The notes beneath the pieces were generated by a model. It did no database searches, had not been told where the DNA came from, and was given only the letters and a program-made list of their open reading frames with translations. A DNA stretch of 64,000 bases from an uncultured bacterium (lineage in GTDB: Bacteria; Fidelibacterota; Marinisomatia; Marinisomatales; UBA1611). The stretch covers positions 6,122-70,121 of the forward strand of contig CAJVZI010000003.1 of assembly GCA_913020665.1 (NCBI GenBank), in the 5' to 3' direction. Positions 18,421 through 34,155 of the stretch are shown here, in pieces; the stretch's first letter is position 1; the number at the start of each line of letters is the position of its first letter. Made by a program: the position numbers and the translations under genes.

Positions 18421-19122
18421 ATGTTTAGTGATATTATAAATGTTGTGATCTCACTTCCTAGCCAGCATGTGCTCTTTGGTATGATAAGTACTGTTCTTTG
18501 CATCGCTGCAGCATGGGTCTACAGCAATAGTTCTAGTAGAGTCAAACAGGTCATTTTAATGACAATTGGATACCTTGTAATATTTAATGAGATCGTTTTT
18601 CAGGTCTACATGATCTATTATGGCATTTGGTCTTTAAAGACCTCATTACCTATGGAAATGTGTTATTTGTCAGCGTTATTAATACCAGTATATGCAAAAA
18701 ATCAACATATTAGACTGTTAAAGACCTGGTTCTTTTTTGCTGGGTTTGGTGGCTCCCTTTTTGCATTTATAAATACAAATCTCTCTGAGATGGAACACAT
18801 ATACGTATCCATCCATTATTTTTTTGCGCATGGCCTCGTCATTTTTGTAATGTTAAGTATCGTTGTAGATGGATACAGGCCTATGTGGAAAGACTATTTT
18901 ATTGCTATTCAATGGACAACGGTACTTGTTGTTTTTATCATTCTGGTCAATTTGACCCTTGATAGTAATTATATGTTCACCTTTGAAAAACCTGAAGGGG
19001 TTAATTTCACTTTACTTATGCCTGGTTGGCCATATTACTTTTTGATCATGCTTTGCATTGGTCTTGTTTTCTATACATTGATGATGGTAGGCTCTGTTGC
19101 TATAACAAAACGTAATAAATAA
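18421..19122 (+). CDS. multi-pass integral membrane protein of unknown function (possibly YwaF/TIGR02206-like)
   Basis: About 7 hydrophobic segments are visible. The family assignment rests only on size and topology, so it is weak. Confidence 0.5.
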   Translation: MFSDIINVVISLPSQHVLFGMISTVLCIAAAWVYSNSSSRVKQVILMTIGYLVIFNEIVFQVYMIYYGIWSLKTSLPMEMCYLSALLIPVYAKNQHIRLLKTWFFFAGFGGSLFAFINTNLSEMEHIYVSIHYFFAHGLVIFVMLSIVVDGYRPMWKDYFIAIQWTTVLVVFIILVNLTLDSNYMFTFEKPEGVNFTLLMPGWPYYFLIMLCIGLVFYTLMMVGSVAITKRNK

Positions 19123-19138
19123 CGCCCATAACGCCTAT
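19121..19138 (+). promoter_or_regulatory. tandem 9-mer site a (AACGCCCAT AACGCCTAT), candidate operator upstream of the 10-gene lipid operon
   Basis: This is a degenerate copy of the AACGCTCAT x2 motif. It sits 51 nt before the ATG at 19190 and 6 nt upstream of a TTGTAT -35-like hexamer. Confidence 0.45.
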
Positions 19139-19189
19139 TTTATATTGTATTTGAATTATATTTAAAATAAACTAAACATAGACGAAATT

Positions 19190-19711
19190 ATGAAAACTAT
19201 AGTTAATGTTCTTGGATTCAAGTTGAGCTGGTGGGCGTGTGTCCTTGGTGCTGTAAATGGACTGAAGTATCTCGGTCCTGTCGCAATGCTCATATTCTTG
19301 ATCCTTCACTTATATCTAAACTCTACAAACAGATCTGAGCTAAAGCTCATAATCATTTTTGCTTTTGTTGGAACGATCATAGATACTTTGATGGCTTATT
19401 CAAATTTAATTGGATATGTTGGCCTTTATAGTGAGGATATAATCATCGCTCCCTTGTGGATAACTGCTATGTGGTGCGGTTTCTCTGCATTGGTAAATCA
19501 TTCACTTGCATGGCTAAAAGATAAGTGGTCATTGGCATTTCTGTTTGGAGCTATTGGTGGTCCATTAGCATATATAGGAGGAGAAAAACTCGGAGCCATC
19601 TATTTTTATGGAGGTCTTTTCGAGATCTTGGTCATGCTTGGAATAGTCTGGGGAGCAAGCATTCCATTTATGTATTGGGTCAATGACAGACTGGGTCTTG
19701 GAAATAAATGA
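19190..19711 (+). CDS. DUF2878-family small membrane protein
   Basis: It is a four-to-five-TM protein of about 170 aa. Its position at the head of a DUF1365/CFA-synthase cluster matches the usual DUF2878 context. Confidence 0.55.
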   Translation: MKTIVNVLGFKLSWWACVLGAVNGLKYLGPVAMLIFLILHLYLNSTNRSELKLIIIFAFVGTIIDTLMAYSNLIGYVGLYSEDIIIAPLWITAMWCGFSALVNHSLAWLKDKWSLAFLFGAIGGPLAYIGGEKLGAIYFYGGLFEILVMLGIVWGASIPFMYWVNDRLGLGNK

Positions 19712-20415
19712 TCAGATCAATCCAAAAATATAAAATTTTGATATTGATCTTGATATCTAGTTATGGAAATGCTGAAATAAAAGATAACAGGACCGAAGAA
19801 TTATTAAAGACACTCTATAATAATGAAGGTTGGGTTGTTGATAATATTAAAGAGGGCATTTCATTAAGCAGGAAAACAATTGAAAATATGGAACTAACGG
19901 CACTGATGGTAAGACAGAAAATAATGATACCTAAAGAGATCGTACAGAGTGTTATAATGGATGTGAATAACTATGAAAATTTTCTAAATAATAAAGGGCT
20001 TATTTCAAAGGTGATAAATAGGGGTATAAATTGGGTAGATGGCTATCAGTATATTCCTATTGATATTCCGATGATCGCTGATCGTGAATATCTATTTCGA
20101 ATGTATCCTGATGGCCATAATAAAGAGGACACTACCTCCATCATTCATTGGTATTTGCTAAATAAAAAACAGGATGTATTAGTTGAATTGGATGAGAGGC
20201 TAAAAGATGCGGTCTATTTAGATCATGGCGCTGGGCTATGGGTTGCAGAAGAGATCGAGAAAGATACCATAATTTTATCCTATAGAATATATATGGATCC
20301 TGGAGGTTCATTGCCAGATCTATTGATCGATATAATGAACAAGGTCAGCGTTGTGAATGTATTTAAAGATGCTGTCACTGAAGCCCAAAATAGATATAAT
20401 CTAACTATTCAATAA
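19708..20415 (+). CDS. START/SRPBCC lipid-binding domain protein (secreted)
   Basis: It has a signal peptide and START-like spacing (ALMVRQKI ... VMDVNNYENF ... ADREYLFRMY ... YRIYMDPGGSLP). It overlaps the upstream gene through an ATGA. Confidence 0.55.
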   Translation: MIRSIQKYKILILILISSYGNAEIKDNRTEELLKTLYNNEGWVVDNIKEGISLSRKTIENMELTALMVRQKIMIPKEIVQSVIMDVNNYENFLNNKGLISKVINRGINWVDGYQYIPIDIPMIADREYLFRMYPDGHNKEDTTSIIHWYLLNKKQDVLVELDERLKDAVYLDHGAGLWVAEEIEKDTIILSYRIYMDPGGSLPDLLIDIMNKVSVVNVFKDAVTEAQNRYNLTIQ

Positions 20416-20427
20416 TTATATTATATT

Positions 20428-20973
20428 TTGCGATATTTGATTCTTCATATCTTTTTCTTGGTCTCCTTATTAATTATAGGTTGTAATAACAATTTAGATA
20501 AAAGTGAATTATCAGAAATGAAGACAGTTGATTATGTAGATATAGAGCGATTTATGGGTGATTGGTATGTGATCGCTAATATCCCTACTTTTATTGAAAA
20601 AGGAGCAACCAATGCTATAGAGTCATATAAACTTGGTGATAAAGGGGTTATAGAAACAACTTTCACATTTTATCAGGACTCACCCGATGGAGAAAAAAAA
20701 GTTTATAGACCCAAAGGGTTCATATATAATACAGAGACCAACGCTGAATGGAGGATGCAATTTATTTGGCCATTCAAAATGCCATTTTTGATAATCGATC
20801 TAGATGATAATTATCAATTTACTGTTATTGGTTACCCATCTAGGAAGTATGTATGGATCATGGCGCGGGAACCAAAACTATCTGATGAAGTATATGAGGG
20901 TATTTTATCCAATCTTGCTGAAGTCGGGTATGATATATCTCAGATAAATAAAATACTGCAGCAATGGAATTAA
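20428..20973 (+). CDS. blc: bacterial lipocalin (Blc-like outer-membrane lipoprotein)
   Basis: It has a lipobox (LLIIGC), the lipocalin motif FMGDWYVIANIP and a later VIGYPSRKYVWIMAR segment. The start codon is TTG. Confidence 0.8.
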   Translation: MRYLILHIFFLVSLLIIGCNNNLDKSELSEMKTVDYVDIERFMGDWYVIANIPTFIEKGATNAIESYKLGDKGVIETTFTFYQDSPDGEKKVYRPKGFIYNTETNAEWRMQFIWPFKMPFLIIDLDDNYQFTVIGYPSRKYVWIMAREPKLSDEVYEGILSNLAEVGYDISQINKILQQWN

Positions 20974-20982
20974 TATCATAAA

Positions 20983-22233
20983 ATGAAGATCGCAATAATC
21001 GGCTCAGGTATCTCTGGGCTTACTGCAGGATATTTGCTTAGCAGGAACCATGATGTTACAATGTTTGAAAAGAACAATTATATAGGGGGCCATACACATA
21101 CTCATGATATTGAGTATGAAGGAAAAAATTGGGCAGTTGACTCTGGATTTATTGTATATAATGAATGGACCTATCCAAATTTTATTAAACTTCTTGACCA
21201 ACTTGATGTTGAACGTCAAGTAACTAGAATGGGTTTTAGCGTGAAATCTGAGAGTGAAGATCTCGAATATGCTGGACACTCCTTGAATGGACTTTTTGCT
21301 CAAAGGTCCAATCTTATAAGGCCATCTTTTTTAAAGATGTTGTATAATATGAAACGTTTTAACCAAGAGGCCAGAAAAGATCTCGCGGCCATTGATCCTC
21401 AAACAACATTAGGTGAGTATTTATTATCTAATAACTATTCTAATGAATTTATTCAACATTATATAATTCCAATCGGAGCTGCGATCTGGTCAACCGTGCC
21501 TAATAATATGATGAATATTCCTGCTGTTTTCTTCATTAGGTTTTTTGAGAATCACGGCCTATTGCAGATCGTTGATAGACCTGCATGGTGGGTCATAAAG
21601 GGGGGGTCAAAAACATATGTTGAAAAGATCACCTCTGGTTTCAAAGATAGTATAAGGCTTTCGACACCGGTGAAAAATGTGAAACGAGAAAAGGACTCTA
21701 TTATAGTACACTTTGGAAGCGAAGGAGAAAATACAGAAAGCTTTGATGCTATAGTTTTCGCTACACACAGTGACCAGTCCCTTGAAATCTTAGAGCAGCC
21801 AACAAAAGATGAAGAAGAGATACTTGGTGCCATAGAATACCAAAATAATAGTGCGATATTGCACTTCGATGAATCTATCCTTCCCAAAAGAAAAAATGCC
21901 TGGTCCAGCTGGAATTATTTACTTGATCAAGATCAAAATAAGCCTGTGGCTTTAACATACAATATGAATATTTTGCAAGGTCTCACTTGCTCACGAACTT
22001 TCTGTGTAACGTTGAATAGTCAAGATCTGGTTGACCCTGAGAAGGTCATTAAATATCTTAATTATGAACACCCACTCTTCACCGTGCCAAGTATAAATGC
22101 GCAGAAACAAAAACATAAGATCAATGGAGAAAACAACACCTATTATTGCGGAGCATATTGGCGCAATGGATTCCATGAAGATGGGGTGGTCAGTGCGCTG
22201 GATGTATGCAGTCATTTTGGAGAGACATTATGA
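20983..22233 (+). CDS. FAD-dependent oxidoreductase (amine-oxidase / phytoene-desaturase-like fold)
   Basis: The N-terminus has the dinucleotide-binding motif KIAIIGSGISGLTAGYLL ... FEKNNYIGGH. The C-terminal YCGAYWRNGFHEDG segment is typical of the cfa-cluster oxidoreductases. Confidence 0.85.
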   Translation: MKIAIIGSGISGLTAGYLLSRNHDVTMFEKNNYIGGHTHTHDIEYEGKNWAVDSGFIVYNEWTYPNFIKLLDQLDVERQVTRMGFSVKSESEDLEYAGHSLNGLFAQRSNLIRPSFLKMLYNMKRFNQEARKDLAAIDPQTTLGEYLLSNNYSNEFIQHYIIPIGAAIWSTVPNNMMNIPAVFFIRFFENHGLLQIVDRPAWWVIKGGSKTYVEKITSGFKDSIRLSTPVKNVKREKDSIIVHFGSEGENTESFDAIVFATHSDQSLEILEQPTKDEEEILGAIEYQNNSAILHFDESILPKRKNAWSSWNYLLDQDQNKPVALTYNMNILQGLTCSRTFCVTLNSQDLVDPEKVIKYLNYEHPLFTVPSINAQKQKHKINGENNTYYCGAYWRNGFHEDGVVSALDVCSHFGETL

Positions 22234-23012
22234 GTGTGTCTAATAAGAGTTTCATTTTTAGAGGGACTATCCGCCATAGACGTTTTACTCCATTTGATCA
22301 TTTTTTTACCTACCCTTTATTCATGATATATGTTGATCTAAATACGATCAAGGAAACTATCAAACGCTCATGGATGTGGAATATTGACAAACCAGCTATG
22401 ATCTCATTTAATAGAAATGACTATCATGGTGCAGGAAATGGTGATCTTGATTCGGCTGTTCGTAAGACCATATATAAACAAACTGGACATGAGGTTAAAG
22501 GGCCTATACGATTACTCACCCATTTAAGATATTTTGGATATTGTTTTAATCCAGTGAGTTTTTATTATTGTTTTAATGAAAGTGATACAGAGGTCGAACT
22601 GATCATGGCAGAAGTAACAAATACCCCATGGGATGAACGACATTCTTATGTAATAGATAAAAAAGCTAAAAAAGGAAAAGTGGATAATCTTGCAGCGGAT
22701 CTTAAAAAGAAATTACATGTTAGTCCATTTTGGGGGATGGATCATGAATATGAATGGCTTTTTAGTCAACCCAAAAAGAATTTAATGGTCAATATGATCA
22801 ATTATAAAGATGAAGAAAAGGTATTTGATGCCACATTGAATATGAAAAGGATACCATTTACCTTAGGAAACCTACTGAAACAGGTCGCAAGATTTCCATT
22901 TATCACCTTATTGGTTGTCTTTCGAATTCACTGGCAAGCATTTAAACTCTGGCTCAAAAAAGCGCCATATTTTATACATCCTGATAAGATCAAACTAATG
23001 AAAGGCAATTAA
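22230..23012 (+). CDS. DUF1365-family protein
   Basis: It carries GTIRHRRFTPFDHFFTYPLFMIYVDL and RLLTHLRYFGYCFNPVSFYYC, both characteristic of DUF1365. I chose the ATG at 22230, which forms an ATGA overlap with the upstream stop. The track start at 22206 is less likely. Confidence 0.75.
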   Translation: MSVSNKSFIFRGTIRHRRFTPFDHFFTYPLFMIYVDLNTIKETIKRSWMWNIDKPAMISFNRNDYHGAGNGDLDSAVRKTIYKQTGHEVKGPIRLLTHLRYFGYCFNPVSFYYCFNESDTEVELIMAEVTNTPWDERHSYVIDKKAKKGKVDNLAADLKKKLHVSPFWGMDHEYEWLFSQPKKNLMVNMINYKDEEKVFDATLNMKRIPFTLGNLLKQVARFPFITLLVVFRIHWQAFKLWLKKAPYFIHPDKIKLMKGN

Positions 23013-23016
23013 ATAT

Positions 23017-24288
23017 ATGAGTACAACGATGCAAGTAGATCATCTTGCGGATGGGGTCAAGACACATAAAAGATCCAGCTTCCTCATCTCTATATTCAAA
23101 AGTGGACTATTAAAGAAATTCCAAGGTCTAAGAACGGGGAACATACTAGTTTATGATGGGAACGATGAATTTTCTTTTGGAGATGATGGGTCAGATGAAA
23201 AAGTAGTTGTGAATATCCATTCGCAGGAATTCTATGTTATGGTTGGAAGCGGCGGAGCTTTAGGCCTTGCGGAGGCTTATATGGCAGGGTTCTGGTCTTC
23301 GGATAATGTGGTAAAGCTCTTTCAAATAATCTTAAGGAATAGGGATATCCTACTATCTCTTGAAAGAGGTTTTGCTAAACTTATTAAACCGATAAATAAA
23401 ATGATCCACCGTAGTAGACAAAATACACTTCAAGGCAGCAAAAAGAATATTGTAGCACATTATGATCTTAGTAATGATTTTTATAAGCTTTGGCTTGATC
23501 CAACAATGACATATTCTTGTGCATTTTTTAAGGATGAATCAGTAACCCTTGAAGAAGCATCCAAAGAAAAGTTGGATCGAATATGCAGAAAATTAAATTT
23601 ATCGGAGCAGGATTCTGTTCTGGAGATAGGTACAGGTTGGGGTAGCTTTTCAATTCATGCCGCAAAAAATTATGGTTGCAATGTTACCACTACAACCATA
23701 TCTGATGCTCAGTATGAATATGCAAGCTCTCGAATAAAAGAGGAGGGATTAGAATCAAAAATAACTCTCATTAATAAAGACTATCGTGAGTTGGATGGTA
23801 AATATGATAAGATTGTTTCAATAGAGATGATCGAAGCGGTTGGATACGAGTATATCTCAGGATTTTTCTCAAAATTATCATCTTTATTAAAAAGTAATGG
23901 ATTCATTGCGCTGCAGGGTATTACATACAATGATCAAAATTTTGATGTCTATAAAGATTCAGTAGATTTTATAAAAAAATACATATTTCCAGGTTCATGT
24001 TTAATCTCTATTTCGCAGATCACTGAAGTGATAAAAAAAGATACAGATCTTGCGATGATAGATATGGAAGATATTACAAAGCACTATGCCATAACCTTGA
24101 ATAGATGGAGGAAAAATTTTATTGATGTACTCCCTAAGGTAAAAGAGATGGGATATTCTCAAGCATTTATTAATATGTGGGAGTTTTACTTTTTATATTG
24201 TGAGGCTGGTTTTCTAGAAAGGAATATTGGAGATGTCCAATTGGTCTTTGCAAAATCTGGCACCAGAGATATAAATATTAATTATTAA
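23017..24288 (+). CDS. cyclopropane-fatty-acyl-phospholipid synthase family SAM-dependent methyltransferase (long form)
   Basis: It shows HYDLSNDFYKLWLDPTMTYSCAFF, the SAM motif VLEIGTGWGSF and a C-terminal WEFYFLYCEAGF segment. Confidence 0.9.
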   Translation: MSTTMQVDHLADGVKTHKRSSFLISIFKSGLLKKFQGLRTGNILVYDGNDEFSFGDDGSDEKVVVNIHSQEFYVMVGSGGALGLAEAYMAGFWSSDNVVKLFQIILRNRDILLSLERGFAKLIKPINKMIHRSRQNTLQGSKKNIVAHYDLSNDFYKLWLDPTMTYSCAFFKDESVTLEEASKEKLDRICRKLNLSEQDSVLEIGTGWGSFSIHAAKNYGCNVTTTTISDAQYEYASSRIKEEGLESKITLINKDYRELDGKYDKIVSIEMIEAVGYEYISGFFSKLSSLLKSNGFIALQGITYNDQNFDVYKDSVDFIKKYIFPGSCLISISQITEVIKKDTDLAMIDMEDITKHYAITLNRWRKNFIDVLPKVKEMGYSQAFINMWEFYFLYCEAGFLERNIGDVQLVFAKSGTRDININY

Positions 24289-24291
24289 CAT

Positions 24292-25326
24292 ATGATATCA
24301 AAACTAATTGAATTAGCAGAAAAGGGTTTGATCCCTGATTTTATGATCAGAGCAGGGATTGTGAGAAATTGTAAAAATCGACTACGAAATGAAAGCTCTT
24401 TTTCAAAACAAGAACTGGATGCAAAAAAGCAAAAGTGGGTCGAGCAAATGAAAGAGAGTCCTATTGCCCTTGTTCCAGAAAAAGCCAATGAACAACATTA
24501 TGAGGTCCCCCCATCATTTTTTGAAGAGGCTTTAGGCTCTAATCTAAAGTATAGCTCTGGCTATTGGCCTAGTAGCGAAACAACCCTTGATCAATCTGAA
24601 GTTTCTATGTTAGAGTTAAGCTGTGAAAGAGCAGAATTGAAAGATGGACAAAATATTCTTGAGCTTGGGTGTGGATGGGGTTCTCTAACTTGTTTTATGG
24701 CAAGCCAATATCCAAACAGTCAGATCACAGCAGTTAGTAATTCAAAAGACCAAAAGGAACATATTTTGAAAAGATGCGAAGATAGTGGTCTAGCAAATGT
24801 AAATGTTATTACGGCTGATATGAATGAATTTAGCACAGACCAAAGTTTTGATCGGGTTATATCAATAGAGATGTTTGAGCATATGAGGAATTATAAAAAA
24901 CTATTATCGAGAATTTCAACTTTCCTAGATATTAAAGGAAAATTATTTGTTCATATTTTCGCACATGATCATTTAGTCTATCCATTTGAGAATAAGGGAG
25001 ATGCAGATTGGATGGCCAGAGAATTTTTTTCAGGTGGGATGATGCCTTCTCATGACCTATTTGAATATTTTCAAGACGATCTTAAGGTTGAGAAGAGCTG
25101 GAGGGAGTCAGGGACTCATTATGAAAAGACATCCCTAGCCTGGCTAAATAAAATGGATAAGAATAAAAGCAAGATCATGGGAATATTTGAAAGCACTTAT
25201 GGCTTAGAAGATGCAAAAAAATGGTTTCAGAGATGGCGCATATTTTTTATGTCATGTGAAAAATTATTTGGATATAAAAATGGGACAGAGTGGGGTGTAT
25301 CCCATTACCGTTTCATCAAACATTAG
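24292..25326 (+). CDS. second CFA-synthase/mycolic-acid-methyltransferase-like SAM-dependent methyltransferase (short form)
   Basis: It shows QHYEVPPSFFEEALGSNLKYSSGYW, ILELGCGWGSL, ISIEMFEHM and WRIFFMSCEKLF. Confidence 0.85.
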   Translation: MISKLIELAEKGLIPDFMIRAGIVRNCKNRLRNESSFSKQELDAKKQKWVEQMKESPIALVPEKANEQHYEVPPSFFEEALGSNLKYSSGYWPSSETTLDQSEVSMLELSCERAELKDGQNILELGCGWGSLTCFMASQYPNSQITAVSNSKDQKEHILKRCEDSGLANVNVITADMNEFSTDQSFDRVISIEMFEHMRNYKKLLSRISTFLDIKGKLFVHIFAHDHLVYPFENKGDADWMAREFFSGGMMPSHDLFEYFQDDLKVEKSWRESGTHYEKTSLAWLNKMDKNKSKIMGIFESTYGLEDAKKWFQRWRIFFMSCEKLFGYKNGTEWGVSHYRFIKH

Positions 25327-25334
25327 ATCAATCT

Positions 25335-26051
25335 ATGGAAATACTAATATTTCTTTTCTGTCACTGGTATCTGTCGCTGTTCTTTCAGACATTCTTTTTA
25401 CATCGTTATGCTTCACACAATATGTTTAAAATGAGTCCGTTTTGGGAGAAGACCTTTTTCTTTCTTACTTTTATATTCCAAGGTTCATCATTTCTACATC
25501 CTGCAGCATATAGTGTAATGCATAGAAGACATCATTCGCATGCTGATACACCAAAAGACCCTCATTCGCCTGTTCATCTTAAAAATATTATTTCCTTCAA
25601 CCTGGCAACAGTGGTAGAATATAGAAAACTGGTCAACGAATTTATGAAAGGTGAAAGGACCATCACGGATGCTCCTAGGTGGCATCGATTAGAGTCGATT
25701 GCAGAATCTTTGTGGACCAGAGTAGCTTTTATATTCTTATATTTTTTATTTTATGTTTTTTTTGCAACCTCTACGTGGCAATACTTATTATTCCCATTAC
25801 ATATTACTATGGGTTCTATGCATGGCTTTATCGTTAATTGGTTTGGACATAAGACAGGTTACAGGAATTATGATTCAATGCCTGATAACTCAAAAAATAC
25901 TCTGCCTGTAGATTTTTTAATGATGGGGGAGCTATACCAGAATAATCATCATCGAAAGCCAAAAGAACTCAATTTCGCAGTGCGATGGTTTGAACTAGAT
26001 TTCGGGTACCTCGCAACATCAGTACTCAAAAGATTAAAAATAATATACTAA
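25335..26051 (+). CDS. membrane fatty-acid desaturase (acyl-lipid/acyl-CoA desaturase-like)
   Basis: Three histidine boxes are present: HRYASH, HRRHHSH and NNHHRKP. I chose the ATG at 25335 to avoid overlap with the upstream gene. Confidence 0.8.
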   Translation: MEILIFLFCHWYLSLFFQTFFLHRYASHNMFKMSPFWEKTFFFLTFIFQGSSFLHPAAYSVMHRRHHSHADTPKDPHSPVHLKNIISFNLATVVEYRKLVNEFMKGERTITDAPRWHRLESIAESLWTRVAFIFLYFLFYVFFATSTWQYLLFPLHITMGSMHGFIVNWFGHKTGYRNYDSMPDNSKNTLPVDFLMMGELYQNNHHRKPKELNFAVRWFELDFGYLATSVLKRLKIIY

Positions 26052-26057
26052 AGAATA

Positions 26058-26939
26058 ATGCCTCAGAATATTAAAGATTATATAGCGGTTATAATTGCTT
26101 TCTCTTTGGGCGCTTTAGTGGCAGTCGCAGGCTCTAATGGTGGTTATGAATATAAAGGTTACTCGATCTTGTTAATATGCATGGCCTTCAGCTTCCTATT
26201 ACATTGGATCGCTTTTTTACCATCATATTTGGCAAGAACAGAAAAATTTTATGATATAATAGGGACTGTTGCATATCTTACAGTTTTAGCTACAGCATCT
26301 TACTTAACAATCCTTTCAACTAATGGTCACCTGCAAATAAGGTCAATTATAACGATAGCTCTTGTTACCATATGGGCACTAAGATTAGGCTTATTTCTTT
26401 TCATTCGTGTTCTTAAGGCGGGAGAGGATCGAAGATTTCGAGAAGTGAAACAAAATTTCTCAAAGTTTTTAGTTTGGTGGAGTGTATCAGCGTTATGGGT
26501 CTTTCTTACTTCTGCAAATGCATTAACAATGATCATTAATAATGTTGGTTATTCTGATGATCTATATCTTTTTCTTGGTCTTCTTCTCTGGTTAGTAGGA
26601 TTTTCTTTCGAGGCCATAGCAGACGAGCAGAAAAGAAGGTTTAAATCTGATGTAAATAACAAAGATTCTTTTATTCAAACAGGTCTCTGGAGTATATCCA
26701 GGCATCCAAATTATTTTGGTGAAATATTATTATGGATAGGAATGGCGGTTATTGCCTTTCCTACGCTGGAAGGTTGGCAGTATGTAACATTGATCTCACC
26801 CTTTTTTATTTATGTACTCCTCACTAGGGTGAGTGGTGTAAATCTTTTAGAGCAACGTGCAGATCAAAAATGGGGTGGCGACGAAGACTATGAGATATAC
26901 AAGAAGAATACACCTGTCTTAATTCCATATATAAAATAA
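26058..26939 (+). CDS. DUF1295 / steroid-5-alpha-reductase-like membrane protein
   Basis: It is multi-pass and carries the family hallmark GLWSISRHPNYFGEILLWIG. Confidence 0.8.
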   Translation: MPQNIKDYIAVIIAFSLGALVAVAGSNGGYEYKGYSILLICMAFSFLLHWIAFLPSYLARTEKFYDIIGTVAYLTVLATASYLTILSTNGHLQIRSIITIALVTIWALRLGLFLFIRVLKAGEDRRFREVKQNFSKFLVWWSVSALWVFLTSANALTMIINNVGYSDDLYLFLGLLLWLVGFSFEAIADEQKRRFKSDVNNKDSFIQTGLWSISRHPNYFGEILLWIGMAVIAFPTLEGWQYVTLISPFFIYVLLTRVSGVNLLEQRADQKWGGDEDYEIYKKNTPVLIPYIK

Positions 26940-26949
26940 GAGATATGGA

Positions 26950-27525
26950 ATGCCCCGCTCCCTTTTTATCACTACAGTTATAATATTACTCTTTTTACAA
27001 AATTCAATTATGGCCATTGAAACTCCAAATTTTAAATTAATAAAAAAAGAAGGCGAATTTGAGATCCGTGAATATGAGCCTATGATCATTGCTATGACAA
27101 AGGTAAAAAGTGGATACAGGGAAGCATCTAGTACAGGATTTAGAAGAATTGCAAATTATATTTTTGGTGGAAATCAGAAGCAAATGGAAATCAAAATGAC
27201 AGCACCTGTTATCACTGATGTGCCTAATGTAAAAGGTATGTATGATATACTTTTTGTAATGCCATCCCAGCATAAATTTGATGATCTCCCAATTCCTGAT
27301 GATGATAATGTTGAACTCAAGGTGAAAGAACTAGGTAAAACAGCTGTTATACAGTTTGGTGGTTGGGCAACTGAGAGCAGAGCAACTCACTACAAGGAAA
27401 AATTAGAACAGTTTATTGAAACTAGTGGATATGAGATCAACAGCGATTACATGGTAGCTCAGTATAATTCGCCATGGGCTCTACCCCCATTTAGAAGAAA
27501 TGAAATTATTATAATGATAAAATAA
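26950..27525 (+). CDS. SOUL heme-binding family protein (secreted)
   Basis: It has a signal peptide and SOUL motifs (ETPNFKLIKKEGEFEIREYEP, GFRRIANYIFGGN, KMTAPV, YNSPWALPPFRRNEI). Confidence 0.8.
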   Translation: MPRSLFITTVIILLFLQNSIMAIETPNFKLIKKEGEFEIREYEPMIIAMTKVKSGYREASSTGFRRIANYIFGGNQKQMEIKMTAPVITDVPNVKGMYDILFVMPSQHKFDDLPIPDDDNVELKVKELGKTAVIQFGGWATESRATHYKEKLEQFIETSGYEINSDYMVAQYNSPWALPPFRRNEIIIMIK

Positions 27526-27529
27526 TAAT

Positions 27530-27547
27530 AACGCTCATAACGCTCAT
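27530..27547 (+). promoter_or_regulatory. tandem 9-mer site b (AACGCTCAT AACGCTCAT), candidate operator
   Basis: This is a perfect direct repeat. It sits 7 nt upstream of TTGAAG (27555-27560) and 60 nt before the ATG at 27608. An inverted half-site AGCGTT follows at 27559-27564. Confidence 0.5.
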
Positions 27548-27607: not shown

Positions 27608-28099
27608 ATGTCTTTTGAACAAAAAGTATTAATTAGAGGTGTAGAGCCACTCGATGTGATCAGGTGTTTTCATGACCGTAAGTTCGTAGAGTTTCTTACA
27701 GCGTTACAACCAGTGAAGATAAAAAGTTGGAGAGGGATTAACGATGAAATGGAAGCTTCCTTTTCCTTTTGGTTTTTTGGTTGGAGAGAGATAAGAGTTG
27801 TGCACAAGAATTATAGAGTTACTAGGAGCTCACTAGAGTTTGAGGATTTAGGGATGAAGCTTCCTTTTGGCTTATCCCACTGGAACCATCATCATATTGT
27901 TGAGTTACATGAGAAAGGTACCGTTATTGTAGATAAAGTTGAGATGAGCCATCAAAGCCTAGTAAAAAAATATTTTATAATTCCCATCATGTTGTTTCCT
28001 GTTTTTATTAGGCGCTTTACTTATAGAATTTGGTTCTATCTAATGGAGGGCAATACATGGGATTCCTTTAAGAGATTTAAGTCCAATGAAAAAATTTAG
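27608..28099 (+). CDS. hypothetical protein, possibly SRPBCC-fold with C-terminal hydrophobic helix
   Basis: It is an ORF in the operon context behind motif site b. There is no confident family match by eye. Confidence 0.4.
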   Translation: MSFEQKVLIRGVEPLDVIRCFHDRKFVEFLTALQPVKIKSWRGINDEMEASFSFWFFGWREIRVVHKNYRVTRSSLEFEDLGMKLPFGLSHWNHHHIVELHEKGTVIVDKVEMSHQSLVKKYFIIPIMLFPVFIRRFTYRIWFYLMEGNTWDSFKRFKSNEKI

Positions 28100-28571
28100 T
28101 GCCATTTTAATATTATTTGTATTTGCTTGTGAACCAAAAGAGAAATCTAGTGGATATATGTTCAATGAGAGATGGATTTCAGTAGATGGTCAAAGAAGCG
28201 AGGTCTGGTTTCAAGATTGGTCTAGTTATATACGGCTTTTTATTAAGACGCAAAAAGATACTCTGAAAGTCAGTCCAAGTCCCTATGCAACTAGAACAAA
28301 AAACAAACCATATCTCTATCCCAAGCCGTATAAGTTATATGAGGTTGACCAATTAATAGGAAACTTGACATGGGAAAAAGAATTTTCCTGGGAAAATGGG
28401 TACGAAAATAACTTTGCATGGAAGGTCGACCGAAGTAATCCAAAGAGAACGTTACCTCTTGACTATGAGGGTATGGCCAAAAATGAGGGTGGAAAACTTA
28501 GGCTAATCATCAAAGAAAATGATAAATTGATCTTTAATACCCTGCTTGAACCTCTCAAATATAAAAAATAA
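28086..28571 (+). CDS. hypothetical lipoprotein
   Basis: It has a lipobox (LILFVFAC) and overlaps the upstream gene by 14 nt. Confidence 0.5.
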   Translation: MKKFSAILILFVFACEPKEKSSGYMFNERWISVDGQRSEVWFQDWSSYIRLFIKTQKDTLKVSPSPYATRTKNKPYLYPKPYKLYEVDQLIGNLTWEKEFSWENGYENNFAWKVDRSNPKRTLPLDYEGMAKNEGGKLRLIIKENDKLIFNTLLEPLKYKK

Positions 28572-33270: not shown

Positions 33271-34155
33271 ATGAGATACCTCAGTTCTAAAGATGTCGCA
33301 GAAATACTAGGCATAAACATCTCAACTCTCAAACGCTGGACAGACAGTGGTGTATTGGAGTGTTCTAAAACAGCAGGTGGGCATAGGAAGTTCACTATGC
33401 AACATATTCGTAATTTCTATAAAAACAAGGGTGCCTCTGGAAGAAATAGTAATCTTGGTCTTGAAAATATCCAACATAAGAAAGTATATGATCTAATTAA
33501 CAAAAAAGATTTTAGTGGGCTTGCAAGAATACTAGCAGATGCCAGCTTGGAATCGGATGAGTTAAGTGTCAACACGGTCATAAATGGTGCTTATATGAAG
33601 GGAATCAACGTAGAGCTTATCTGTGATGAAATAGTTGAGCCTGCAAGTATGATAGTTGAGAACGCTCTTAGGCAAGGATACCTAAGTCATGTTGAAACAT
33701 TTATAAGTAGGAAAATGATGACACGTGTAGTAGAGGGTCTCAACCAAAATAAACCTAACGGTTCATTCAATGGTAAGACCGCTCTCTGTGTCAACTTTGA
33801 AGATAATTTACCTGACCTAGGTGTGGTTATGTCAGAAGTCGTACTTAGACATAATGGATATAATGTACTCAATACTGGATCTCATGCGGACCTTGGGAAT
33901 CTTCAAACAGTGATTGAAAAGAAGAGAGTCGACCTGGTTCTATTCTTTCTTTGTGATATGCAATGTTGTATGGCAACAGTAAAAGATAATCTAGAAAAAA
34001 CAGAAATAAAGACAAAAGAAATTACTGAATTAGCTAGGGAGCAAGGCGTTAAGGTATTGTTTGGTGGAACAGGCCTGCAGTTTTTACCAAGTGTTATCAA
34101 TTCAACAGATGCCACTTTTATAAAATATTCCGATCTCAAACAGATCATAGTTTAA
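33271..34155 (+). CDS. MerR-family HTH regulator fused to a B12-binding-like (helical bundle + Rossmann) domain; CarH/LitR-like architecture
   Basis: The N-terminus is a MerR/excisionase-type HTH (YLSSKDVAEILGINISTLKRWTDSGVL). The C-terminal GKTALCVNFEDNLPDLGVVMSEVVLRHNGYNVLNTG ... VDLVLFF segment follows the cobalamin-binding Rossmann pattern. Confidence 0.7.
   Translation: MRYLSSKDVAEILGINISTLKRWTDSGVLECSKTAGGHRKFTMQHIRNFYKNKGASGRNSNLGLENIQHKKVYDLINKKDFSGLARILADASLESDELSVNTVINGAYMKGINVELICDEIVEPASMIVENALRQGYLSHVETFISRKMMTRVVEGLNQNKPNGSFNGKTALCVNFEDNLPDLGVVMSEVVLRHNGYNVLNTGSHADLGNLQTVIEKKRVDLVLFFLCDMQCCMATVKDNLEKTEIKTKEITELAREQGVKVLFGGTGLQFLPSVINSTDATFIKYSDLKQIIV

What the first reader, a model, noticed from the sequence alone, without database searches (positions are those of the whole stretch)
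19190..27525. A ten-gene operon resembles furan / methylated fatty-acid biosynthesis, expanded with lipid carriers, a desaturase, DUF1295 and SOUL
The core is an FAD oxidoreductase, a DUF1365 protein and two CFA-synthase-family methyltransferases. As far as I recall, this is the gene set implicated in bacterial methylated furan fatty-acid synthesis in Rhodobacter and Rhodopseudomonas: a UfaM-type methylase, a UfaD-type FAD desaturase, a UfaO-type oxygenase and a second FufM-type methylase. My memory of which family maps to which name should be verified.

Here the core is co-transcribed with a DUF2878 membrane protein, a secreted START protein, a lipocalin lipoprotein, a three-His-box membrane desaturase, a DUF1295 membrane protein and a SOUL protein. 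Gaps between genes are at most 12 nt. The three predicted envelope lipid- or tetrapyrrole-binding proteins suggest the modified lipid is trafficked across the envelope. The roles of DUF2878, DUF1295 and SOUL in this pathway are not established.
Basis: partly seen in the sequence, partly recalled or inferred. Interest (0 to 1): 0.6.

Follow-up and report, generated by a model that had tools for sequence, protein, structure and literature searches.

The report
Light-regulon furan-fatty-acid-type operon in SAR406
An uncultured ocean bacterium (SAR406/Marinimicrobia) carries a ten-gene version of the known bacterial gene set that turns membrane fatty acids into protective methylated furan fatty acids, here placed in a candidate light-stress regulon with three exported lipid- or pigment-binding proteins; it is a new variant of a known system, not a new pathway.

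Summary
Ten co-directional genes at 19190-27525 are packed with gaps of -4 to +12 nt.

The core order is FAD oxidoreductase, then DUF1365, then a CFA-synthase-family methylase. This matches ufaD-ufaO-ufaM of Rhodopseudomonas palustris (Lemke 2020) and is consecutive in 43 of 44 loci from many phyla.

- The first methylase falls in a DUF1365-linked clade separate from E. coli Cfa.
- The second methylase belongs to the coclaurine-N-methyltransferase-like subfamily that the literature links to FufM.

DUF2878, DUF1295, lipocalin and a delta-9-type desaturase are common companions. Stenotrophomonas maltophilia has a published sigma-ChrR-controlled nine-gene operon with the same set. Only the START protein and SOUL are lineage-specific.

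A tandem 9-mer sits directly upstream of the operon. It is shared with four other promoters of an island that holds photolyases, an SDR, glutathione peroxidase and a MerR/B12-like regulator.

The product was not shown, and the characterised proteins could not be fetched for direct comparison. This scan has already noted this cluster type 244 times on other DNA.

Verdict: new variant of a known kind, moderate interest.

The parts
19121..19138 (+). Tandem 9-mer (AACGCCCAT AACGCCTAT), candidate operator directly upstream of the operon
   Evidence: One search found 5 matches to AACGCTCATx2 (up to 3 mismatches) in the window against 0.04 expected. The others lie at 27530, 28582, 32640(-) and 33212. 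The same position (between TMEM164 and DUF2878) holds the motif with 1 mismatch in relative L008.
19139..19168 (+). Promoter-like hexamers TTTATA-18-TAAAAT abutting the repeat
   Evidence: This is a weak consensus match only; the scan as a whole is not enriched over shuffles.
19190..19711 (+). DUF2878 small integral membrane protein (5 hydrophobic segments)
   Evidence: Pfam PF11086 1.9e-38. Hydropathy. Linked to the core in 17 of 38 non-SAR406 loci.
19708..20415 (+). Exported START-fold lipid-binding protein (no Pfam family)
   Evidence: AF2 pLDDT 77. Foldseek gives 3qsz at E 7e-12, plus STARD10, StarD4 and CERT. Only about 80 homologues exist, all from marine sources and the few named ones Marinimicrobia.
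20428..20973 (+). Blc-type lipocalin lipoprotein (lipobox LIIGC)
   Evidence: PF08212 7e-36; NF007786 Blc 5.8e-24, below its cut-off.
20983..22233 (+). UfaD-like FAD-dependent oxidoreductase (amine-oxidase fold)
   Evidence: PF01593 and PF13450. The nearest solved structure is LkcE at 151 bits. It lies immediately upstream of DUF1365 in 43 of 44 loci.
22230..23012 (+). UfaO-like DUF1365 protein (ATGA overlap with the FAD gene; the longest ORF starts at 22206)
   Evidence: PF07103 264 bits. AF2 pLDDT 90, with no solved homologue at E<=0.001. Residues H16, R18, E136, K160, H163 and Y174 are invariant across phyla.
23017..24288 (+). UfaM-like two-domain CFA-synthase-family SAM methyltransferase (CMAS1)
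   Evidence: PF02353 5.9e-84. It scores below the equivalog cut-offs of E. coli, Brucella and CfaB cyclopropane synthases. It sits in the DUF1365-linked clade, apart from E. coli Cfa.
24292..25326 (+). FufM-like short CMAS-family methyltransferase of the coclaurine-N-methyltransferase type (CMAS2)
   Evidence: 6gkv scores 252 bits over the full length against 95 bits for E. coli Cfa. It is 24% identical to CMAS1 and forms its own clade of 46 rows.
25335..26051 (+). Short delta-9/SCD-type membrane fatty-acid desaturase (longest ORF from GTG 25290)
   Evidence: PF00487. His boxes HRYASH, HRRHHSHADTPKDPHSP and QNNHH. It is 27% identical to the Stenotrophomonas cluster desaturase. It is present in 5 of the 6 SAR406-type loci with at least 6 kb of flank on both sides, including the reduced five-gene operons.
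26058..26939 (+). DUF1295 polytopic membrane protein (steroid-5-alpha-reductase/ICMT-like superfamily)
   Evidence: PF06966 1.9e-57 and Steroid_dh 2.4e-8. 7c83 at E 0.001 over the C-terminal PNY(F/L)GEI region. Never found without CMAS2 in 44 loci.
26950..27525 (+). Exported SOUL/HEBP-family protein
   Evidence: PF04832 6e-47. Human HEBP2 at 5.9e-14 over the full length. Signal-like N-terminus.
18421..19122 (+). TMEM164-family membrane acyltransferase, conserved immediate upstream neighbour; it lies before the operator, so membership of the unit is uncertain
   Evidence: PF14808 4.7e-30. TIGR02206 scores 91 bits against a cut-off of 75. Adjacent to DUF2878 in L002, L008 and a third SAR406 contig.
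27530..27547 (+). Second, perfect copy of the tandem 9-mer. It marks the 3' end of the ten-gene unit and the start of the next unit (27608-28571).
   Evidence: The same arrangement follows SOUL in L008.

Best explanation
This is the SAR406 (Marinimicrobia) version of the conserved photo-oxidative-stress lipid-modification operon whose core makes methylated furan fatty acids on membrane phospholipids.

Proposed sequence of steps:
1. The short delta-9-type desaturase uses O2 to make a cis-monoenoic acyl chain.
2. The UfaM-like methylase (23017-24288) adds a SAM methyl group and shifts the double bond, giving a methyl-trans-monoene.
3. The UfaD-like flavoprotein (20983-22233) introduces a second double bond, giving a conjugated diene.
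4. The DUF1365 UfaO-like protein (22230-23012) inserts an O2-derived oxygen and closes the furan ring.
5. The CNMT-type second methylase (24292-25326) adds the second ring methyl, as FufM does, in some way together with its constant partner DUF1295.

Proposed roles of the exported proteins: the START protein and the lipocalin lipoprotein carry the modified (or damaged) lipid in the periplasm and outer membrane. SOUL binds tetrapyrrole photosensitisers.

Proposed regulation: transcription starts behind a tandem 9-mer shared with four other promoters of the island (photolyases, SDR, glutathione peroxidase, the regulator's own gene). The operon is therefore probably de-repressed by light through the neighbouring MerR/B12-like regulator rather than by the sigmaE-ChrR pair used in Proteobacteria.

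Shown here: gene families, folds, order, conservation, clade placement and the shared motif.

Inferred: every chemical step, the product, the carrier roles and the light control.
For: - Families and tight packing.
- The order FAD-DUF1365-CMAS equals R. palustris RPA2571-2570-2569. Those three genes restore 9M5-FuFA synthesis in a triple mutant (PMC7380195).
- The same trio is consecutive in 43 of 44 loci from many phyla, among them Pseudomonadota, Nitrospirota, Acidobacteriota, Planctomycetota, Actinomycetota and Chloroflexota.
- CMAS1 lies in a starred clade of 72 DUF1365-linked methylases. That clade is separate from E. coli Cfa and from two Cfa-like unlinked paralogues found in genomes that also hold the linked gene.
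- In P. syringae the best match of UfaM (RSP2144) is the cfa gene of the phrB-SDR-amine oxidase-DUF1365-cfa locus (PMC5507510).
- CMAS2 is 24% identical to CMAS1, against 26% for FufM and UfaM. It is a full-length CNMT-type protein. FufM is 37.9% identical to the CNMT-like Arabidopsis LIME1 (PMC10940516).
- The island also holds an SDR, a lipoprotein and a photolyase. These are the other members of the core sigmaE-ChrR singlet-oxygen regulon.
- In Chlamydomonas, CFA1, CFA2, two SOUL genes, GPX5, DUF1365 and DUF1295 are co-induced by singlet oxygen (PMC4067076).
- The operator-like repeat lies upstream of the operon and is conserved in position in L008.
- In the phylum sample, 5 of 7 DUF1365-positive genomes have a photolyase, against 34 of 194 others.
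Against: - No lipid data exist for SAR406 or for any member outside two alphaproteobacteria.
- I could not fetch UfaD, UfaO, UfaM or FufM sequences. Orthology therefore rests on synteny, family and literature statements, not on direct comparison.
- In C. sphaeroides the operon genes RSP1087-1089 are dispensable for FuFA, and UfaM is unlinked. Linkage therefore does not prove function.
- FufM alone sufficed in vivo and in vitro, so DUF1295 has no assigned step.
- The S. maltophilia cluster gave menadione tolerance but no singlet-oxygen phenotype.
- The desaturase lacks the usual N-terminal membrane helices.
- The regulator's B12-binding match is below Pfam's cut-off, and light control is untested.
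- The photolyase association counts related genomes: 4 of the 7 positives come from one family.
Confidence: 0.6

Rival explanations
1. The operon modifies fatty-acyl chains, but the end product is not a furan. It could be, for example, a methyl-branched, methylene, cyclopropane, conjugated-diene or other oxygenated acyl chain. In this reading CMAS2 plus DUF1295 act as a methylase/reductase pair, as in sterol C24-methylation/reduction or tuberculostearate synthesis.
For: - DUF1295 shows steroid-5-alpha-reductase-type similarity.
- DUF1295 never occurs without CMAS2 in 44 loci: 26 with both, 5 with CMAS2 only, 0 with DUF1295 only.
- The authors of the S. maltophilia and V. cholerae studies read the genes as CFA synthases.
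- The products of members outside two alphaproteobacteria are unknown.
Against: - Every characterised FAD+DUF1365+CMAS trio makes 9M5-FuFA.
- FufM needs no reductase.
- CMAS1 is not in the E. coli Cfa clade.
- The DUF1295-CMAS2 coupling has only 3 phylogenetically independent contrasts and is not significant.
Confidence: 0.22
2. The enzymes act on a non-acyl lipid such as a carotenoid, quinone or other isoprenoid. The START, lipocalin and SOUL proteins would be its carriers.
For: - The FAD protein has the CrtI/amine-oxidase fold.
- START domains also bind carotenoids (BmCBP hits).
- DUF1295 resembles sterol reductases.
- CNMT-type methylases act on non-lipid substrates in plants.
Against: - Matches to CrtI/CrtD models cover only the N-terminal dinucleotide fold.
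- No isoprenoid synthesis gene is in the island.
- The same trio is experimentally tied to phospholipid acyl chains.
- The desaturase carries acyl-CoA/acyl-lipid delta-9 His boxes.
Confidence: 0.07
3. The ten genes are only neighbours, not one functional unit. The accessory genes are unrelated passengers.
For:
- The promoter and terminator scans are uninformative in this AT-rich DNA.
- Reduced five-gene forms exist.
Against: - Gaps are -4 to +12 nt on one strand.
- The whole order is conserved at 50-73% protein identity.
- The same families cluster in unrelated phyla and are co-induced 165-700-fold in S. maltophilia.
Confidence: 0.03

Closest known systems
Rhodopseudomonas palustris ufaD-ufaO-ufaM (RPA2571-2570-2569) plus fufM (RPA0924); Lemke et al. 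2020, PMC7380195
   Same: - The gene order FAD oxidoreductase, DUF1365, CFA-synthase-family methylase is the same.
- There is a second, distant methylase: about 25% identity between the two in both organisms.
- fufM is translationally coupled to an upstream gene RPA0923 (ATGA overlap, read from the published primers). This resembles the DUF1295-then-CMAS2 pairs seen in many loci.
   Different: - In the window both methylases sit in one operon together with a desaturase, DUF2878, DUF1295 and three exported binding proteins.
- The host is SAR406, not an alphaproteobacterium.
- The family of RPA0923 is not stated in the paper.
- Sequences could not be compared directly.
Cereibacter (Rhodobacter) sphaeroides sigmaE-ChrR singlet-oxygen regulon: RSP1091-1087, RSP2143 (phrB), RSP2144 (ufaM)
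   Same: It has the same family set: FAD oxidoreductase, DUF1365, CFA-like methylase, SDR, lipoprotein and photolyase. It has the same physiological theme, photo-oxidative stress.
   Different: - No ECF sigma or ChrR lies on the window's contig. None with a ChrR cupin domain was found in the 70%-complete MAG.
- Control is instead suggested by a tandem 9-mer and a MerR/B12-like regulator.
- In C. sphaeroides ufaM is unlinked to ufaD-ufaO.
Stenotrophomonas maltophilia smlt2375-smlt2367 nine-gene cluster (PMC11832516)
   Same: - Eight of the ten families occur in one operon: desaturase, FAD oxidoreductase, DUF1365, two CFA-family methylases, two inner-membrane proteins (DUF2878 confirmed by Pfam in the S. 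rhizophila homologue; DUF1295 seen there by tblastn only) and a lipocalin.
- The cluster is shown to be one stress-induced regulon, 165-700-fold up in a chrR mutant.
   Different: - Gene order differs.
- An ECF sigma/anti-sigma pair controls it.
- It has no START or SOUL gene.
- The authors interpret it as cyclopropane synthesis.
- Its phenotype is superoxide (menadione) tolerance, not singlet-oxygen tolerance.
MerR-phrB-NTF2-SDR-FAD-DUF1365-cfa-DUF2878 operons of Aeromonas/Vibrio (Aeromonas sp. BC14 plasmid p1; PMC10012899; V. cholerae blue-light regulon, PMC5241685)
   Same: A MerR-family regulator and a photolyase are physically joined to the same lipid core. The Vibrio homologues are induced by blue light.
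   Different: - These operons have no second methylase, DUF1295, desaturase, START or SOUL.
- The regulator sits at the head of the operon.
- In the window the regulator lies 6 kb downstream and acts, if at all, through dispersed operator repeats.
Chlamydomonas SAK1 singlet-oxygen regulon and Arabidopsis lipid-droplet UFAMD1/UFAO1/LIME1
   Same: The same families are co-regulated or co-localised: CFA1 and CFA2, SOUL, GPX, DUF1365 and DUF1295. This supports a functional tie of SOUL and DUF1295 to the core.
   Different: These are eukaryotic, dispersed genes. The FAD and methylase domains are fused in plants. Products are not demonstrated there either.

Membership tests
Methylated furan fatty acid pathway (UfaD/UfaO/UfaM) | A DUF1365 protein (UfaO family) | tested here: met
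   PF07103 264 bits against a cut-off of 25, covering 234 of 235 profile positions.
Methylated furan fatty acid pathway (UfaD/UfaO/UfaM) | A FAD amine-oxidase-type gene immediately upstream of the DUF1365 gene (as in RSP1091-1090 and RPA2571-2570) | tested here: met
   ATGA overlap at 22230-22233. The same adjacency holds in 43 of 44 loci.
Methylated furan fatty acid pathway (UfaD/UfaO/UfaM) | A CFA-synthase-family SAM methylase that is not an ordinary cyclopropane synthase | tested here: inconclusive
   CMAS1 lies in the DUF1365-linked clade (72 rows, SH-aLRT 100), apart from E. coli Cfa and Cfa-like paralogues. It scores below all three cyclopropane-synthase equivalog cut-offs. UfaM itself was not in the tree, and the tree was a quick search.
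Methylated furan fatty acid pathway (UfaD/UfaO/UfaM) | Reciprocal best match to the characterised proteins Q3IYV7, Q3IYV8 and Q3J4I7 | not testable with these tools
Methylated furan fatty acid pathway (UfaD/UfaO/UfaM) | Production of 9M5-FuFA-type lipid from monoenoic phospholipid, SAM and O2 | not testable with these tools
   This needs expression and FAME GC-MS.
FufM (FuFA ring methylase) | A second, distant CMAS-family methylase of the short CNMT/LIME1 type | tested here: inconclusive
   CMAS2 is 24% identical to CMAS1. CNMT 6gkv scores 252 bits over the full length. The link to FufM is indirect, through the 37.9% identity of LIME1 to FufM reported in PMC10940516.
SigmaE-ChrR core regulon | An ECF sigma plus ChrR anti-sigma controlling the genes | tested here: not met
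   No ChrR cupin (PF12973) is present in the MAG. Four sigma genes exist, none on the window's contig. The MAG is only 70% complete, so absence from the genome is not proven.
CarH/LitR-type light regulon | A shared operator upstream of the unit and a MerR regulator with a B12-binding domain nearby | tested here: inconclusive
   The repeat is present upstream at 19121-19138 with 3 mismatches and conserved in L008. The regulator at 33271-34155 has a MerR HTH, but its B12-binding match scores 24 bits, below the cut-off of 32. The CarH model scores 27 bits against a cut-off of 400. No binding or light data exist.
START lipid-transfer domain | Helix-grip fold with a long C-terminal helix | tested here: met
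   Foldseek gives E 7e-12 to 3qsz, and ranks 1-42 are START-type lipid/carotenoid-binding domains. The sequence models (Pfam) do not detect it.
Delta-9 (SCD/DesC-type) membrane desaturase | Three His boxes and four membrane helices | tested here: inconclusive
   The His boxes are present. Only two strongly hydrophobic segments are found and the N-terminus is short. The DesA_fam model scores 91 bits against a cut-off of 400.

The most novel reading that the evidence does not exclude
The operon is a self-contained, light-switched system with two parts.

- It makes dimethyl furan fatty acids from scratch. The desaturase supplies the monoene, and CMAS2 acts with DUF1295 on a step not yet described.
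- It ships them, or their oxidised remains, across the periplasm by a dedicated START protein and a lipocalin, while SOUL mops up porphyrin photosensitisers.

If so, abundant heterotrophic SAR406 and the marine Proteobacteria that share this operon type would be a so far uncounted bacterial source of the F-acids that accumulate in marine food webs.
Probability: 0.2. Interest if true: 0.65.

Novelty: new variant of a known kind. Interest (0 to 1): 0.38.

Why it matters
Furan fatty acids are potent radical and singlet-oxygen scavengers. They accumulate in fish and reach humans through diet. Their marine producers are poorly defined, and the bacterial pathway is proven in only two alphaproteobacteria.

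This locus places a complete candidate pathway in SAR406, one of the most abundant uncultured ocean lineages. The pathway has its own desaturase, a FufM-type second methylase and exported lipid carriers. It sits under what looks like a light-responsive repressor rather than the classical sigmaE-ChrR switch.

The locus also sharpens three open questions that can be tested with simple constructs:
- What does DUF1295, the constant partner of the FufM-type methylase, do?
- What does DUF2878 do?
- Are SOUL/START/lipocalin proteins part of a lipid-protection route to the outer membrane?

None of this changes the known chemistry, so the value is incremental.

Tried and rejected
1. Fetching the characterised proteins. 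I searched JGI metagenome contigs for a 19-mer taken from the published R. palustris primers. It gave 43 contigs, none with any ufa-type gene.
2. The PNAS 2014 and JMB 2008 papers are not held.
Co-transcription and day/night expression could therefore not be checked.
4. The sigma-70 promoter and terminator scan is not enriched over shuffles and does not define the unit.
5. Pfam, even at E up to 5, gives nothing for the START-like protein or for the two downstream genes 27608-28571.
6. A phylogenetically independent-pairs test of DUF1295, DUF2878 and lipocalin against CMAS2 found only 3 supported contrasts (p >= 0.25). The raw coupling must not be read as statistics.
7. The DUF1365 model found no solved homologue. 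The best hit is 3bdr at E 0.016, followed by weak lipocalin-like barrels. No mechanistic inference was drawn from it.
8. I considered and rejected a carotenoid pathway. Only the N-terminal dinucleotide fold matches the CrtI models.

Full report
WHAT IS THERE

The window is contig C3 of a 1.83-Mb, 70%-complete MAG. The nearest homologues of its proteins come from ocean metagenomes, and where named they are Candidatus Marinimicrobia/SAR406.

Ten + strand ORFs fill 19190-27525. Pfam and NCBIfam confirm nine of them: DUF2878, a Blc-type lipocalin, a FAD amine-oxidase-type oxidoreductase, DUF1365, two CMAS-family methyltransferases (423 and 344 aa), a FA_desaturase, DUF1295 and SOUL.

The second ORF has no sequence-family hit. 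Its AlphaFold2 model (pLDDT 77) matches START lipid-transfer domains: 3qsz at E 7e-12 and TM 0.76, with STARD10, StarD4 and CERT next.

Using the internal ATGs at 22230 and 25335 (the first gives the 260-aa length of most homologues; for the desaturase, called genes in relatives are 209 or 238 aa), the intergenic distances are -4, 12, 9, -4, 4, 3, 8, 6 and 10 nt. An 82-nt gap follows.

Simple hydropathy and N-terminal inspection give the following picture:
- Three exported proteins: START with a signal peptide, lipocalin with the lipobox LIIGC, and SOUL with a signal peptide.
- Three integral membrane proteins: DUF2878, the desaturase and DUF1295.
- Four soluble enzymes.

IS IT A UNIT, AND HOW WIDESPREAD IS IT?

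In SAR406 relatives whose proteins are 50-73% identical, the full order recurs on three contigs. That order is TMEM164, DUF2878, START, lipocalin, FAD, DUF1365, CMAS1, CMAS2, desaturase, DUF1295, SOUL. A reduced five-gene form (FAD, DUF1365, CMAS1, CMAS2, desaturase) occurs in others.

A scan of species-representative genomes with a DUF1365 alignment gave 80 named loci from many phyla. I ran tblastn of the window's proteins against them. FAD-DUF1365-CMAS1 is consecutive in 43 of the 44 loci that have at least 6 kb on both sides.

Outside SAR406 (38 loci) the companions occur as follows:
- CMAS2: 23
- DUF1295: 22
- DUF2878: 17
- a desaturase: 12
- lipocalin: 11
- SOUL: 2
- the START protein: 1

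DUF1295 never occurs without CMAS2 (26 with both, 5 with CMAS2 only, 0 with DUF1295 only). This rests on only three phylogenetically independent contrasts, so it is not statistically secure.

Within the phylum the operon is patchy. DUF1365 was found in 7 of 201 sampled genomes. Five of those 7 have a PF00875 photolyase, against 34 of 194 others. Four of the seven belong to one family, so this is only suggestive.

Loci from Thioglobus, a PS1-clade alphaproteobacterium and a Piscirickettsiaceae MAG nest inside the SAR406 clade for both methylases. This hints at transfer among surface-ocean bacteria.

WHAT THE LITERATURE ESTABLISHES

Lemke et al. 2020 (PMC7380195) establish the pathway:
- UfaM (RSP2144, CFA-synthase-like) methylates cis-vaccenate to 11Me-12t-18:1.
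- UfaD (RSP1091, FAD protein) makes the 10t,12t diene.
- UfaO (RSP1090, DUF1365) inserts O2-derived oxygen to give 9M5-FuFA.
- R. palustris RPA2571-2570-2569 do the same.
- FufM (RPA0924, 26% identical to UfaM) methylates 9M5- to 9D5-FuFA.

The window's order equals that of R. palustris.

In P. syringae, UfaM's best match is the cfa gene that follows the DUF1365 gene (PMC5507510).

The core sigmaE-ChrR regulon comprises a photolyase, cfaS, an SDR, a lipoprotein, DUF1365 and the amine oxidase. All six kinds are present in the window's 17-kb island.

S. maltophilia has a nine-gene, sigmaEc-ChrR-controlled cluster: desaturase, FAD oxidoreductase, hypothetical, CfaS2, two inner-membrane hypotheticals, CfaS1, lipocalin and a periplasmic hypothetical. 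It is induced 165-700-fold in a chrR mutant (PMC11832516). In S. rhizophila I confirmed by Pfam that the homologous cluster holds the desaturase, DUF2878, the second methylase and the lipocalin next to an ECF sigma/anti-sigma pair. FAD, DUF1365, CMAS1 and DUF1295 are seen there by tblastn only; the ORF I picked for DUF1295 gave no Pfam hit.

Most of the 'expansion' is therefore a known companion set. Only the START protein (about 80 homologues, all from marine sources and the few named ones Marinimicrobia) and SOUL are specific to this and a few marine lineages.

Independent support that SOUL and DUF1295 belong with the core comes from Chlamydomonas. There CFA1, CFA2, two SOUL genes, GPX5, DUF1365 and DUF1295 are all SAK1-dependent singlet-oxygen genes (PMC4067076).

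TESTS OF THE TWO METHYLASES

The MAG has no CMAS gene other than these two.

I built a tree of 124 CMAS proteins (quick IQ-TREE, SH-aLRT). It included E. coli Cfa and unlinked paralogues from five genomes that also hold the cluster.
- The window's CMAS1 falls in a group of 72 DUF1365-linked proteins (support 100).
- E. coli Cfa groups with unlinked paralogues of Stenotrophomonas and Methylotetracoccus (support 100).
- CMAS2-type proteins form a third clade of 46 rows (support 100).

CMAS1 scores below the equivalog cut-offs of all three characterised cyclopropane-synthase models.

CMAS2 matches plant coclaurine N-methyltransferase over its whole length (6gkv, 252 bits), against 95 bits for E. 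coli Cfa. It is 24% identical to CMAS1. PMC10940516 reports FufM to be 37.9% identical to the CNMT-like Arabidopsis LIME1.

However, UfaM and FufM themselves were not in my comparisons.

REGULATORY CONTEXT

I re-ran the search. It gave five matches against 0.04 expected:
- 19121-19138, with 3 mismatches, ending 51 nt before the first start codon and abutting a weak -35/-10;
- 27530, right after SOUL;
- 28582;
- 32640 on the - strand;
- 33212, upstream of the regulator gene.

In relative L008 the repeat (1 mismatch) lies at the same place, between TMEM164 and DUF2878, and again after SOUL.

The regulator (33271-34155) has a MerR HTH. Its B12-binding-like domain scores below Pfam's cut-off, and it matches the CarH model only weakly.

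No ChrR cupin domain was found in the MAG, and none of its four sigma genes is on this contig.

Gammaproteobacterial MerR-phrB-...-FAD-DUF1365-cfa-DUF2878 operons (Aeromonas plasmid p1; PMC10012899) and the MerR/ChrR blue-light regulon of V. cholerae are the nearest regulatory parallels.

ACCESSORY PROTEINS

- The desaturase carries delta-9/SCD-type His boxes (HRYASH, HRRHHSHADTPKDPHSP, QNNHH). It is 27% identical to the cluster desaturase of Stenotrophomonas but is short at the N-terminus.
- DUF1295 shares the C-terminal PNY(F/L)GEI region with bacterial steroid-5-alpha-reductase (7c83, E 0.001).
- SOUL aligns full-length with human HEBP2 and HEBP1.
- The FAD protein's nearest structure is the amine oxidase LkcE.
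- DUF1365 gives a confident model (pLDDT 90) with no solved homologue. The best hit is a calycin-like barrel at E 0.016. Across phyla H16, R18, N107, W134, E136, K160, H163 and Y174 are invariant.
- The upstream TMEM164-family gene passes NCBI's acyltransferase model. It lies before the repeat.

MOST LIKELY MECHANISM

The proposed mechanism is given under Best explanation. The steps are desaturase, then UfaM-like methylase, then UfaD-like desaturation, then UfaO-like ring closure, then FufM-like second methylation. The exported START and lipocalin would act as lipid carriers and SOUL as a porphyrin sink. The whole would be light-de-repressed.

With a delta-9 rather than a delta-11 monoene, the ring would sit two carbons nearer the carboxyl group (7M/7D-type F-acids). 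This is my inference only.

The overall diene + O2 -> furan + H2O reaction is redox-balanced. A reductant is therefore not formally needed (my arithmetic). This leaves DUF1295 without an obvious step.

NOVELTY

This is a known kind of system in a new host, with a different apparent regulator and two lineage-specific exported proteins.

The scan's own index lists 244 notes of this cluster type in at least 240 other genomes. I did not test those notes.

LIMITS

- There are no lipid or transcript data.
- No direct comparison with the characterised proteins was possible.
- The tree was a quick search.
- tblastn counts of small, divergent proteins are lower bounds.

Noticed in passing
window 18421-19122: A TMEM164-family membrane acyltransferase (TIGR02206, 91 bits against a cut-off of 75) is the conserved immediate upstream neighbour of the operon in three SAR406 contigs, even where the gene before it differs. 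It lies upstream of the operator repeat. It may be a lipid-remodelling partner.
   Followed up: partly
window 26058-26939 and 24292-25326; loci L006-L085: DUF1295 never occurs without the CNMT-type methylase in 44 loci (26 with both, 5 with the methylase only, 0 with DUF1295 only) and is often directly adjacent. The published R. palustris primers show that RPA0923 overlaps the fufM start by ATGA. Only 3 independent contrasts exist, so this is unproven.
   Followed up: partly
window 22230-23012: The DUF1365 (UfaO-like) model has pLDDT 90 and is a beta-rich fold with a long C-terminal helix. It has no solved homologue at E<=0.001; the best hit is the calycin-like Ycf58, 3bdr. Two His, one Glu, one Lys, one Arg and one Tyr are invariant across phyla.
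   Followed up: partly
L009, L010, L011 (Thioglobus, PS1 clade, Piscirickettsiaceae MAGs): Marine proteobacterial loci with the order FAD-DUF1365-CMAS1-CMAS2-DUF1295(-SOUL) nest inside the SAR406 clade in both methylase groups of the tree. DUF1365 is found in only 7 of 201 genomes of the phylum sample. Together this hints at horizontal transfer among surface-ocean bacteria.
   Followed up: partly
window 25335-26051: The cluster desaturase is unusually short (238 aa, and 209 aa as called in relatives). Its first His box lies at residue 23, so the usual N-terminal membrane helices of delta-9 desaturases are missing. It is nevertheless conserved at 54-73% identity in SAR406.
   Followed up: no
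window 27608-28571: Two genes without any family hit (163 and 161 aa) follow SOUL behind their own perfect copy of the 9-mer repeat. They are conserved in the same place in L002, L008 and a third contig.
   Followed up: no
L147 (Aeromonas sp. BC14 plasmid p1, 98 kb): A complete MerR-phrB-NTF2-SDR-FAD-DUF1365-cfa-DUF2878-(Trp-rich)-chalcone-isomerase-like-DUF3833 operon sits on a plasmid. DUF1365 is found on 102 plasmid or chromid records in PLSDB.
   Followed up: no
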